From the human T2T-CHM13v2.0 reference genome, Homo sapiens, in assembly GCF_009914755.1 (NCBI RefSeq), contig NC_060925.1: a stretch of DNA of 64,000 bases. One strand, given 5' to 3'. A model generated the notes under the pieces. That model was not told the origin of the DNA and made no database searches. It saw only the letters and a list, made by a program, of their open reading frames with translations. Shown piece after piece: positions 32,524 through 37,421 of the stretch. Made by a program: the position numbers and the translations under genes. The stretch's first letter is position 1. The number at the start of each line of letters is the position of its first letter.

Positions 32524-35500
32524 TCAATTCCCACCTATAAGTGAGAACATGCGGTGTTTGGTTTTTTTGTCCTTGCGATAGTTTGCTGAGAATGATGGTT
32601 TCCAGCTTCATCCATGTCCCTACAAAGGACATGAACTCATCGTTTTTTATGGCTGCGTAGTATTACATGGTGTATATATGCCTCATTTTCTTAATCCAGT
32701 CTATCATTGTTGGACATTTGGGTTGGATCCAAATCTTTGCTATTGTGAATAGTGCTGCAATAAACATACGTGTGCATGTGTCTTTATAGCAGCATGATTT
32801 ATAACCCTTCGGGTATATACCCAGTAATGGGATTGCTGGGTCAAACGGTATTTCTAGTTCTAGATCCCTGAGGAATTGCCACATTGACTTCCACAATGGT
32901 TGAACTAGTTTACAGTCCCACCAACAGTGTAAAAGTGTTCCTATTTCTCCACATCCTCTCCAGCACCTGTTGTTTCCTGACTTTTTAATGATTGCCATTC
33001 TAACTGGTGTGAGATGGTATCTCATTGTGGTTTTGATTTGCATTTCTCTGATGGCCAGTGATGATGAGCATTTTTTCATGTGTTTTTTGGCTGCATAAAT
33101 GTCTTCTTTTGAGAAGTGTCTGTTATCTTCTTCGCCCACTGGTTGATGGAGTTGTTTTTTCTTGTAAATTTGTTTGAGTTCATTGTAGACTCTGGATATT
33201 AGCCCTTTGTCAGATGAGTAGATTGCAAAAATTTTCTCCCATTCTGTAGGTTGCCTTTTCATTCTGATGGTAGTTTCTTTTGCTGTGCAGAAGCTCTTTA
33301 GTTTAATTAGATCCCATTTGTCAATTTTGGCTTTTGTTGCCATTGCTTTTGGTGTTTTAGATATGAAGTCCTTGCCCATGCCTATGTCTTGAATGGCATT
33401 GCCTAGGTTTTCTTCTAGGATTTTTATGGTTTTAGGTCTAACATTTAAGTCTTTAACCCATCTTGAATTAATTTTTGTATAAGGTGTAAGGAAGGGATCC
33501 AGTTTCAGCTTTCTACATATGGCTAGCCAGTTTTCCCAGCACCATTTATTAAATAGGGAATCCTTTCCCCATTTCTTGTTTTTGTCATGTTTGTCAAACA
33601 TCAGATAGTTTTAGATATGCGGCATTATTTCTGAGGGCTCTTTCTGTTCCATTGGTCTATATCTCTGTTTTGGTACCAGCACCATGCTGTTTTGGTTACT
33701 GTAGCCTCATTGTATAATTTGAAGTCAGGTAGCGTGATGCCTCCAGCTTTGTTCTTTTGGCTTAGGATTCACTTGGTGATGCGGGCCCTTTTTTGGTTCC
33801 ATATGAACTTTAAAGTAGTTTTTTCCAATTCAGTGAAGAAAGTCATTGGTAACTTGATGGAGATAGCATCGAATCTATAAATCACCTTGGGCAGTATGGC
33901 CATTTTCACGATATTGATTCTTCCTACCCATGAGCATGGAATGTTCTTCCATTTGTTTGTATCATCTTTTATTTCATTGAGCAGTGGTTTGTAGTTCTCC
34001 TTGAAGAGGTCCTTCACGTCCCTTATAAGTTGGATTCCTAGGTATTTTATTCTCTTTGAAGCAATTGTGAATGGGAGTTCAGTCATGATTTGGCTCTGTT
34101 TGTCTGTTATTGGTGTATAAGAATGCTTGTGATTTTTGCTCATCGATTTTGTATCCTCAGACTTTGCTGAAGTTGCCTATCAGCTTAAGGAGATTTTGGG
34201 CTGAGACCATGGGGTTTTCTAGATATACAATCATCTCATCTGCAAACAGGGACAATTTGACTTCCTCTTTTCCTAATTGAATACCCTTTATTTCCTTCTC
34301 CTGCCTAATTGCCCGGGCCAGAGCTTCCAACACTATGTTGAATAGGAGTGATGAGAGAGGGCATCCCTGTCTTGTGCCAGTTTTCAAAGGGAATCCTTCC
34401 AGTTTGTGCCCATTCAGTATGATATTGGCTGTGGGTTTGTCATAGATGGCTCTTATTATTTTGAGATATGTCCCATCAATACCTAATTTATTGAGAGTTT
34501 TTAGTATGAAGGTTGTTGAATTTTGTCAAAGGCCTTTTCTGCATCTGTTGAGATAATCATGTAGTTTTGGTCGTTGGTTCTGTTTATATGCTGGATTACG
34601 TTTATTGATTTGCATATGTTGAACCAGCCTTGCATCCCAGGGATGAAGCCCACTTGATCATGGTGGATAAGCTTTTTGATGTGCTGCTGGATTCAGTTTG
34701 CCAGTATTTTACTGAGGATTTTTGCATCAATGTTCATCAAGAATATTGGTCTAAAATTCTCTTTTTTGGTTGTGTCTCTGCCAGTCTTTGGTATCAGGAT
34801 GATGCTGGCCGCATAAAATGCATTAGGGAGGATTCCCTCTTTTTCTGTTGATTGGAATAGTTTCAGAAGGAATGGTACCAGTTCCTCCTTGTACCTCTGG
34901 TAGAATTTGGCTGTGAATCCATCTGGTCCTGGACTCTTTTTGGTTGGTAAGCTATTGATTATTGCCACAATTTCAGACCCTGTTATTGGTCTATTCAAAG
35001 ATTTAACTTCTTCCTGGTTTAGTCTTGGGAGGGCATATGTGTCGAAGAATTTATCCATTTCTTCTAGATTTTCTAGTTTATTTGCGTAGAGGTGTTTGTA
35101 GTATTCTCTGATGGTAGTTGGTATTTCTGTGGGATCTGTGGTGATATCCCCTTTATCATTTTTTATTGCATCTGTTTGATTCTTCTCTCTTTTCTTCTTT
35201 ATTAGTCTTGCTAGCGGTCTATCAATTTTGTTGATCCTTTCAAAAAACCAGCTCCTGGATTCATTGATTTTTTTGAAGGGTTTTCTGTGTCTCTATTTCC
35301 TTCAGTTCTGCTCTGATTTTAGTTATTTCTTGCCTTCTGCTAGCTTTTGAAAGTGTTTGCTCTTGCTTTTCTAGTTCTTTTAATTGTGATGTTGGGGTGT
35401 CAATTTTAGATCTTTCCTGCTTTCTCTTGTGGGCATTTAGTGCTATAAATTTCCCTCTACACACTGCTTTGAATGTGTCCCACAGATTCTGGTATGTTGT

Positions 35501-36342
35501 GTCTTTGTTCTCGTTGGTTTCAAAGAACATCTTTATTTCTGCCTTCATTTTGTTATGTACCCAGTAGTCATTCAGGAGCAGGTTGTTCAGTTTCCATGTA
35601 GTTGAGTAGTTTTGAGTGAGTTTCTTAATCCTGAGTTCTAGTTTGATTGCACTGTGGTCTGAGAGACAGTTTGTTATAATTTCTGTTCTTTTACATTTGT
35701 TGAGGAGTGTTTTACTTCCAACTATGTGGTCAATTTTGCAATAGGTGTGGTGTGGTGCTGAAAAGAATGTATATTCTGTTGATTTGGGGTGGAGAGTTCT
35801 GTAGATAGCTATTAGGTCCACTTGGTGCAGAGCTGAGTTCAATTCCTGGGTATCCTTGTTAACTTTCTGTCTCGTTGATCTGTCTAATGTTGACAGTGGG
35901 GTGTTAAAGTCTCCCATTATTATTGTGTGGGAGTCTAAGTCTCTTTGTAGGTCACACAGGACTTGCTTTATGAATCTGGGTGCTCCTGTATTGGGTGCAT
36001 ATATATTTAGGATAGTTAGCTCTTCTTGTTGAATTGATCCCTTTACCATTATGTAATGGCCTTCTTTGTCTCTTTTGATCTTTGTTGGTTTAAAGTCTGT
36101 TTTATCAGAGACTAGGATTGCAACCCCTGCCTTTTTTGTTTTCCATTTGCTTGGTAGATCTTCCTCCATGCCTTTATTTTGAGCCTATGTGTGTCTCTGC
36201 ACATGAGATGGGTTTCCTGAATACAGCACACTGATCGGTCTTGACTGTTTATCCAATTTGCCAGTCTGTGTCTTTTAATTGGAGCATTTAGTCCATTTAC
36301 ATTTAAGGTTAGTATTGTTATGTGTGAATTTGATCCTGTCAT
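32524..36342 (-). pseudogene. L1-A ORF2 (APE endonuclease/reverse transcriptase), fragmented
   Basis: [48 protein letters not shown]...HCWWDC split over at least 6 ORFs. Confidence 0.95.
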
Positions 36343-36405
36343 TATGATGTTAGCTGGGTATTTTGCTCATTAGTTGACGCAGTTTCTTCCTATCCTCGAT
36401 GGACT

Positions 36406-37421
36406 TTACAATTTGGCATGTCTTTGCAGTGGCTGGTACCAGTTTTTCCTTTCTATGTTTAGTGCTTCCTTCAGGAGCTCTTTTAGGGCAAGCCTGGTGG
36501 TGACAAAATCTCTCAGCATTTGCTTGTCTATAAGTATTTCATTTCTCCTTCACTTATGAAGCTTAGTTTGGCTGGATATGAAATTCTGGGTTGAAAATTC
36601 TTTTCTTTAAGAATGTTGAATATTGGCCCCCACTCTCTGCTGGCTTGTAGAGTTTCTGCCAAGAGATCAGCTGTTAGTCTGATGGTTTCCCTTTGTGGGT
36701 AACCCGACCTTTCTCTCTGGCTGCCCTTAACATTTTTTCCTTCATTTCAACTTTGGTGAATCTGACAATTATATGTCTTGGAGTTGCTCTTCTCGAGGAG
36801 TATCTTTGTGGCATTCTCTGTATTTCCTGAAGTTGAATGTTGGCCTACCTTGCGAGATTGGGGAAGTTCTCCTGGATAATATCCTGCAGAGTGTTTTCCA
36901 ACTTGGTTCCATTCTCCCTGTCACTTTCAGGTACACCAATCAGACGTAGATTTGGCCTTTTCACATAGTCCCATATTTCTTGGAGGCTTTGTTTGTTTCT
37001 TTTTATTCTTTTTTCTCTATACTTCTCTTCTCGCTTCATTTCATTCATTTGATCTTCCGTCATTGATACCCTCTCTTCCAGTTGATCGAATAGGCTATTG
37101 AGGCTTGTGCATTCGTCACGTAGTTCTCATGCCATGGTTTTCAGCTCCCTCAGGTCCTTTAAGGACTTCTCTGCATTGGTTATTCTAGTTGGCCATTCAT
37201 CTAATTTTTTTTTCAAGGTTTTTAACTTCATTGCCATGAGTTCGAACTTCCTCCTTTAGCTTGGAGTAGTTTGATTGTCTGACGCCTTCTTCTCTCAACT
37301 CATCAAAGTCATTCTCCATCCAGCTTTGTTCCATTGCTGGTGAGGAGCTGCATTCCTTTGGAGGAGGAGAGGTGCTCTGCTTTTTAGAGTTTCCAGTTTT
37401 TCTGCTCTGTTTTTTCCCCAT
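36406..37421 (-). pseudogene. L1-A ORF1 (RNA-binding/chaperone), frameshifted
   Basis: MGKKQSRKTGNSK...; SLQEIWDYVKRPNLRLIGVPE. Confidence 0.95.

What the first reader, a model, noticed from the sequence alone, without database searches (positions are those of the whole stretch)
34700..36830. Two neighbouring L1s of different subfamilies share private mutations and frameshifts: patchy inter-element gene conversion
Seen: L1-A and L1-B have distinct TSDs, 5'UTRs and 3' ends. Yet 34975-35730 vs ~48985-49740 differ by only ~1%, while 36120-36470 differ by ~7% and ~36470-36630 is identical again (hand counts). Inside the similar tracts both carry the same departures from consensus: YALP/EVKS, DTPTS, HNKMK, KTLLNK, the same +1 T frameshift ending ORF2 at KTLQKNQ (35268-35274; 49281-49287), and the same ORF1 1-bp deletion (tctataagtatttc). 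Shared inactivating lesions argue against a common active source. Inference: repeated non-allelic gene conversion between direct repeats 14 kb apart, probably B to A because A shows younger-type diagnostics there.
Basis: partly seen in the sequence, partly recalled or inferred. Interest (0 to 1): 0.75.

Follow-up and report, generated by a model that had tools for sequence, protein, structure and literature searches.

The report
Gene conversion between neighbouring LINE-1 copies
Two dead LINE-1 elements 14 kb apart in an intron of human PDE4B share patches of mutations found nowhere else in the genome, most likely because one was copied onto the other during DNA repair, probably more than once; this is a clear example of a known process.

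Summary
L1-A (about 32310-38454) and L1-B (about 46066-52461) are separate minus-strand full-length insertions with different target-site duplications. They differ at 6 of 774 bases in 34959-35732 and 0 of 180 in 36455-36634, against 81 of 1400 in ORF2 outside. Marker strings from both tracts occur only in A and B genome-wide, which excludes a shared sublineage. A carries B's younger-lineage allele at 11 of 11 sites in 34701-35984 but 2 of 52 elsewhere, so that stretch went B-type to A. The recent core lies inside an older converted stretch, so probably two epochs (roughly 18 and 4 Myr; recalled clock, wide limits). Corrections: HNKMK, KTLLNK and the +1 T are not private; direction of the recent tracts and donor of the old one are not fixed; core and second tract may be one event. 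Two other neighbouring L1 pairs taken as controls also share rare alleles, so the process looks common. Non-allelic conversion between repeats, L1 included, is in print. No ape orthologue or read was available. New member of a known kind; interest 0.33.

The parts
32310..38454 (-). L1-A, full-length dead L1 of the older type; acceptor of the B-type stretch
   Evidence: groups with its own 5'UTR relatives outside the tract
32259..32267 (.). A target-site duplication, left copy (9 bp)
38456..38464 (.). A target-site duplication, right copy
46066..52461 (-). L1-B, full-length dead L1 of the younger type, same orientation, offset about 14,012
46055..46065 (.). B target-site duplication, left copy (11 bp)
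52462..52472 (.). B target-site duplication, right copy
34740..35957 (.). Older converted stretch in A, minimum extent (may run from about 34625 to 36149): B-lineage alleles throughout, flanks 3.3% diverged from B
34959..35732 (.). Recent core tract in A: 6 substitutions and 1 indel against B, 11 shared rare alleles
48971..49745 (.). Core tract counterpart in B
36455..36634 (.). Second recent tract in A (ORF1 3' part): identical to B, 3 shared rare alleles and a shared 1-bp deletion near 36531
50469..50648 (.). Second tract counterpart in B
35268..35274 (.). Shared 7-T run breaking ORF2 in A; same length in 3 of 52 other copies, so weak evidence alone
49281..49287 (.). Same 7-T run in B

Best explanation
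A and B are two separately inserted L1 copies that share patches of otherwise unique mutations, most likely through non-allelic gene conversion, probably in at least two epochs. Shown: independent insertion; near-identity confined to patches; A carries B's lineage haplotype over 34740-35957; markers unique to the pair. Inferred: an early event, near the time B inserted, overwrote 1.2-1.5 kb of A's ORF2 5' part with B-type sequence; the lowered divergence would have made the same stretch a better template; a later break was repaired off the neighbour 14 kb away without crossover (a crossover would have deleted or duplicated the spacer), giving the 774-bp core and the 180-bp patch, together or apart, about 4 Myr ago (1.5-9; recalled clock of 1.2% per 6.5 Myr). 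Direction of the late event is not determined. No function is claimed.
For: Exact 33-mer with three shared variants: 2 matches in 3.1 Gb, none at 1 mismatch, and each of the 62 others at 2 mismatches shares only one variant. 29-mer over the ORF1 deletion: 2 matches at up to 1 mismatch. Best hit for the core: B 99%, next 96% (40 of 3330 candidates scored). 11 shared rare alleles in the core against about 0.2 expected. Trees: A sits among older copies on both sides, sister to B in core (0.997) and flanks (0.933). 11 of 11 vs 2 of 52 B-lineage alleles, none of 19 A-type copies has more than 2 (Fisher 1e-10). Two epochs: in flanks A has 7 of 7 lineage alleles but 2 of 12 B-rare alleles, in core 10 of 11; clustering p=0.002.
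Against: Raw mismatch heterogeneity inside 34701-36149 is not significant (p=0.13); tract edges were chosen after seeing the data. For the left flank 39 other L1s match A at 96-98% and B (8 of 257 mismatches) was not among the 40 scored, so the older donor is not pinned on B. Core and second tract fit one age (p=0.29). The younger panel was only 6 copies chosen by B's 5'UTR (5 full-length) plus 28 partial ones. No orthologue, second assembly or read was seen.
Confidence: 0.8

Rival explanations
1. One recent A-B conversion with a discontinuous tract; the older-looking flanks come from A being born as a recombinant L1, or from conversion by cDNA or another B-type copy.
For: Core and second tract fit one age; flank divergence 3.3% (2.0-5.4) overlaps the 4.4% among B-type copies; many L1s match the flank as well as B; copies with mixed old and young alleles exist (L004, L007, L013, L023).
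Against: A matches B also at the three sites where B keeps the older allele (34783, 35408, 35765); none of the 14 younger copies tabulated matches at all 15 sites; A and B are sisters on flanks alone (0.933).
Confidence: 0.11
2. Two successive unequal crossovers (duplication of the 14-kb unit, then contraction) left B sequence inside A.
For: Gives the same end product in one genome (inference); L1-L1 pairs mediate deletions up to 62.9 kb (PMC12350158, passages).
Against: Needs two rare events per patch; only 1 insertion against 219 deletions flanked by L1 pairs in that study; the spacer is single-copy apart from two small local repeats.
Confidence: 0.05
3. Assembly or polishing artefact mixing reads of A and B.
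For: The 180-bp patch is fully identical; reads could not be examined.
Against: The core keeps 7 scattered differences, the flanks 17, so it is not a collapse; tracts are far shorter than the long reads used for this assembly (own knowledge); nested ages are not what mis-polishing makes.
Confidence: 0.03
4. A and B descend from one source or sublineage that carried the variants.
For: HNKMK and KTLLNK alleles are common among related copies.
Against: No third copy shares two of three markers or the deletion string; 5'UTR and ORF1 differ at 42 of 43 lineage sites; shared frame breaks in both ORFs.
Confidence: 0.01

Closest known systems
Conversion between local L1PA3 LINEs and at L1PA7-flanked inversion ends (Frith and Khan, PMC5829575; passages)
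   Same: One L1 tract replaced by a copy of a similar L1 tract within read-length distance.
   Different: Seen there as a variant in one cell line's reads; here nested tracts of two ages between two lineages, read from one assembly. PDE4B is not named in that text.
Neighbouring-Alu homogenisation within about 10 kb (Aleshin and Zhi 2010, seen only as cited in PMC6598467 parts 1-2, and PMC8230782 passages)
   Same: Shared non-diagnostic mutations between close repeats; subfamily mosaics; young-to-old direction commonest (40 vs 12 loci in PMC8230782); repeated conversion at 3 Alu loci.
   Different: 6-kb L1s, 14 kb apart, tracts of 180 to over 1200 bases; typical tract estimates are 50 to several hundred bases (PMC3924818, passages).
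L1-L1 homology-mediated rearrangement (PMC9675761; PMC12350158; passages)
   Same: Same substrate: homology-driven LINE-1 events there have median similarity 93.5%; A-B is 93.6-93.8%.
   Different: Those are crossover or annealing outcomes that change copy number; here the spacer and both TSD pairs are intact.
Segmental duplication of an L1 (control pair L038/L047)
   Same: Many shared rare alleles.
   Different: That pair is near-identical throughout (6 mismatches in 3.5 kb); A and B are patchy with unrelated flanks.

Membership tests
Non-allelic gene conversion between transposable-element copies | Copies arose independently (separate insertion sites) | tested here: met
   Different TSDs, unrelated flanks; different 5'UTR relatives
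Non-allelic gene conversion between transposable-element copies | Local tract of excess identity with divergent flanks | tested here: met
Non-allelic gene conversion between transposable-element copies | Shared derived mutations private to donor and acceptor | tested here: met
Non-allelic gene conversion between transposable-element copies | Tree or subfamily switch inside the tract | tested here: met
Non-allelic gene conversion between transposable-element copies | Non-reciprocal transfer | tested here: met
   In 34701-35984 both copies carry the B haplotype; B did not receive A-type alleles
Non-allelic gene conversion between transposable-element copies | Pre-conversion state seen in an orthologue or another haplotype | not testable with these tools
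   No ape genome or second human assembly is held
Non-allelic gene conversion between transposable-element copies | Single non-crossover repair rather than two crossovers | not testable with these tools
   Same end product in one genome
Named L1PA subfamilies (A about PA4-5, B about PA3-4) | Diagnostic positions against curated consensus | not testable with these tools
   No repeat library; names are recalled and rest on 5.1% and 4.3% pairwise divergence among relatives
Segmental duplication | Homology continues into flanks | tested here: not met

The most novel reading that the evidence does not exclude
Full-length L1s with a close neighbour are homogenised often and repeatedly, with each conversion seeding the next in the same stretch. 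In this sample the two pairs with most shared rare alleles among 1176 were both physical neighbours (14 and 75 kb), and a third neighbour pair tied for first in its overlap. If general, L1 ages and subfamily labels near other L1s are biased, and old L1 pairs keep renewing the identity needed for deletions such as a 14-kb loss in this PDE4B intron.
Probability: 0.4. Interest if true: 0.55.

Novelty: new member of a known kind. Interest (0 to 1): 0.33.

Why it matters
The locus itself is probably neutral intronic DNA. It is a clean, datable case of conversion between long repeats 14 kb apart and about 6% diverged, with nested tracts. It shows that shared inactivating mutations need not mean a shared source, that L1 dating by divergence can be locally wrong, and that this pair now holds near-perfect homology that would favour a 14-kb deletion. 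The control pairs suggest a cheap genome-wide measurement; my ten literature searches found that measurement for Alu but not for full-length L1.

Tried and rejected
35985-36149 as a third tract: 0 of 165 mismatches but no shared rare allele, and B-type copies differ by only 1.2% there; not counted. Shared rare alleles outside tracts (33141, 33709, 36773): 3 seen against about 1.6 expected by chance; not counted. The +1 T, HNKMK and KTLLNK as private markers: rejected. Using A's unique 31-base tail segment to find its source or siblings: single copy at up to 3 mismatches. A recalled PRDM9 13-mer: 5 matches in the window, none in or near the tracts. A whole-genome scan of neighbour pairs could not be run, so generality rests on three pairs. 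Literature: ten searches listed no paper on this pair; PDE4B and approximate GRCh38 coordinate prefixes (offset recalled) were absent from 5 searchable supplements of PMC9675761, one picture file unsearched; PMC10883270 has no mention of conversion. Aleshin and Zhi, Harpak, Tremblay, Myers and Schildkraut papers were not seen. Supplements of PMC12350158 and public SV tables were not seen and may list a deletion here. L047 was left out as the duplicate twin of L038.

Full report
Anatomy. The window holds two full-length minus-strand L1s in direct orientation, A at about 32310-38454 and B at about 46066-52461, in an intron of PDE4B by the hub's annotation. Each has its own target-site duplication (9 and 11 bases) and their 1-kb flanks share nothing. 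The 39 best relatives of each 5'UTR are disjoint lists and neither lists the other element. At 43 lineage sites in 37000-38450 where B has the younger allele, A has it once. They are separate insertions of two lineages. Subfamily names could not be tested.

The observation. A and B differ at 81 of 1400 bases in 33300-34700, 6 of 774 (plus one indel) in 34959-35732, 23 of 305 in 36150-36454, 0 of 180 in 36455-36634 and 115 of 846 in the 5'UTR. A permutation test on 2008 polymorphic columns gave a best segment 34625-36149 above all 5000 shuffles, and p=0.0012 for the second tract once the first is set aside.

Are the shared changes private? Against 54 other L1 copies, A and B share 19 rare alleles: 11 in the core, 3 in the second tract, 2 in the core's flanks, 3 elsewhere; chance gives about 0.2, 0.05 and 1.6 for core, second tract and whole element. 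The similarity search agrees (B 99%, next 96%) but scored 40 of 3330 candidates and such searches can miss copies. Not all cited changes are private: HNKMK is in 9 of 52 copies, the KTLLNK sites in 8, 24 and 11, the 7-T run in 3.

Direction. In trees A lies among its older relatives for 33480-34600 and 36700-37220 but is sister to B, within the younger group, in the core (0.997) and the flanks (0.933). A has B's younger allele at 11 of 11 sites in 34701-35984 and 2 of 52 outside; none of 19 A-type copies has more than 2 of the 11; at the three sites where B keeps the old allele so does A. So B-type sequence replaced A's, and B did not receive A's: non-reciprocal. The second tract has no informative lineage site.

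How many events. In the flanks (34701-34958, 35733-35984; 17 of 509 differences) A has 7 of 7 lineage alleles but 2 of 12 of B's rare alleles; in the core 10 of 11. Shared alleles cluster among unshared ones (p=0.002). This points to an old stretch overlaid by a recent tract. Against: raw mismatches alone do not split the region (p=0.13), the edges are post hoc, and the old donor could be any B-type copy, since 39 other L1s match the left flank at 96-98%. Core and second tract fit one age (p=0.29). With a recalled clock of 1.2% per 6.5 Myr the core is 4.2 Myr (1.5-9.1), the flanks 18 Myr (10.5-29), the second tract under 11 Myr. Once A was B-like, the direction of the recent event cannot be read from one genome.

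Mechanism. Most likely homology-directed repair of a break in one copy off the other, resolved without crossover, since spacer and TSDs are intact (inference from established repair pathways). Two successive unequal crossovers give the same product but need two rare events per patch. A collapse or polishing error is unlikely because the tracts keep scattered differences of two ages, but no reads were seen.

Controls. Among 1081 pairs of 47 panel copies the 99th percentile of shared rare alleles in any 774 bases was 3, against 12 for A-B; the one higher pair (L038/L047) is a duplication twin. I fetched two other neighbour pairs noticed in the hit lists. L050/L059, inverted and 75 kb apart, tie with A-B at 12 shared rare alleles, the top two of 1176 pairs, spread along the element with no young tract. 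L057/L060, inverted and about 15-20 kb apart, differ at 3 of their first 400 aligned bases and 9-29 per 200 beyond, and tie for first of 1326 pairs in that overlap. Three pairs, picked from hit lists, are a lead and not a rate; common source or local duplication is not excluded for L050/L059.

What is known. Conversion between repeats is reviewed in PMC6598467 (parts 1-2 of 4 read), with higher rates within 10 kb for Alu; PMC8230782 (passages) reports subfamily mosaics, mostly young-to-old, and three loci converted more than once; PMC5829575 (passages) shows conversion between L1PA3 LINEs; PMC7827986 (passages) finds recombination signal in discordantly annotated L1 pairs; PMC9675761 and PMC12350158 (passages) cover L1-L1 deletions at similar identity. 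Ten searches listed nothing on this pair and no genome-wide measurement for neighbouring full-length L1s; most subscription papers are not in the library.

Verdict. Real, well supported, and a new example of a known process. Interest 0.33; the bolder reading, common and self-reinforcing conversion among neighbouring L1s, has probability 0.4 and would deserve 0.55.

Noticed in passing
window 47038-47271 (inside L1-B) and 44571-44783: B's ORF2 3' part holds short local repeats followed by a 213-base inverted copy of unique DNA 2.3 kb away (5 differences, 2 at the edge): looks like a templated insertion from break repair.
   Followed up: partly
window 43211-43569: Tandem duplication of about 178 bases of unique DNA, 4 differences in 181.
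   Followed up: partly
window 44076-44452: 5'-truncated plus-strand L1 3' end of about 370 bases with its own 12-base TSD; by recalled diagnostics younger than A and B.
   Followed up: partly
window 32279-32309: 31 unique bases with a polyadenylation-like signal between two poly-T runs inside A's TSDs, resembling a short 3' transduction; single copy in the genome at up to 3 mismatches.
   Followed up: partly
L057 (G000:C1:227694076-227700376) and L060 (G000:C1:227713300-227715400): Inverted neighbour L1s of different types, near-identical for about 400-470 bases next to the point where L057's match to L1 ends; conversion or inversion breakpoint.
   Followed up: partly
L050 (G000:C3:14071949-14078449) and L059 (G000:C3:13991500-13997850): Inverted L1s 75 kb apart share 18 rare alleles along their length at 4.4% divergence.
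   Followed up: partly
L004, L007, L013, L023: Copies with older ORF1 alleles and partly younger ORF2 alleles: intermediate or recombinant L1 lineages.
   Followed up: no
window 42195-42290: Short imperfect tandem repeat of about 45 bases, seen by eye.
   Followed up: no
window 37600-38454 and 51610-52461: Both L1s are antisense to PDE4B, so their 5'UTR antisense promoters (recalled feature) would point in the gene's direction.
   Followed up: no
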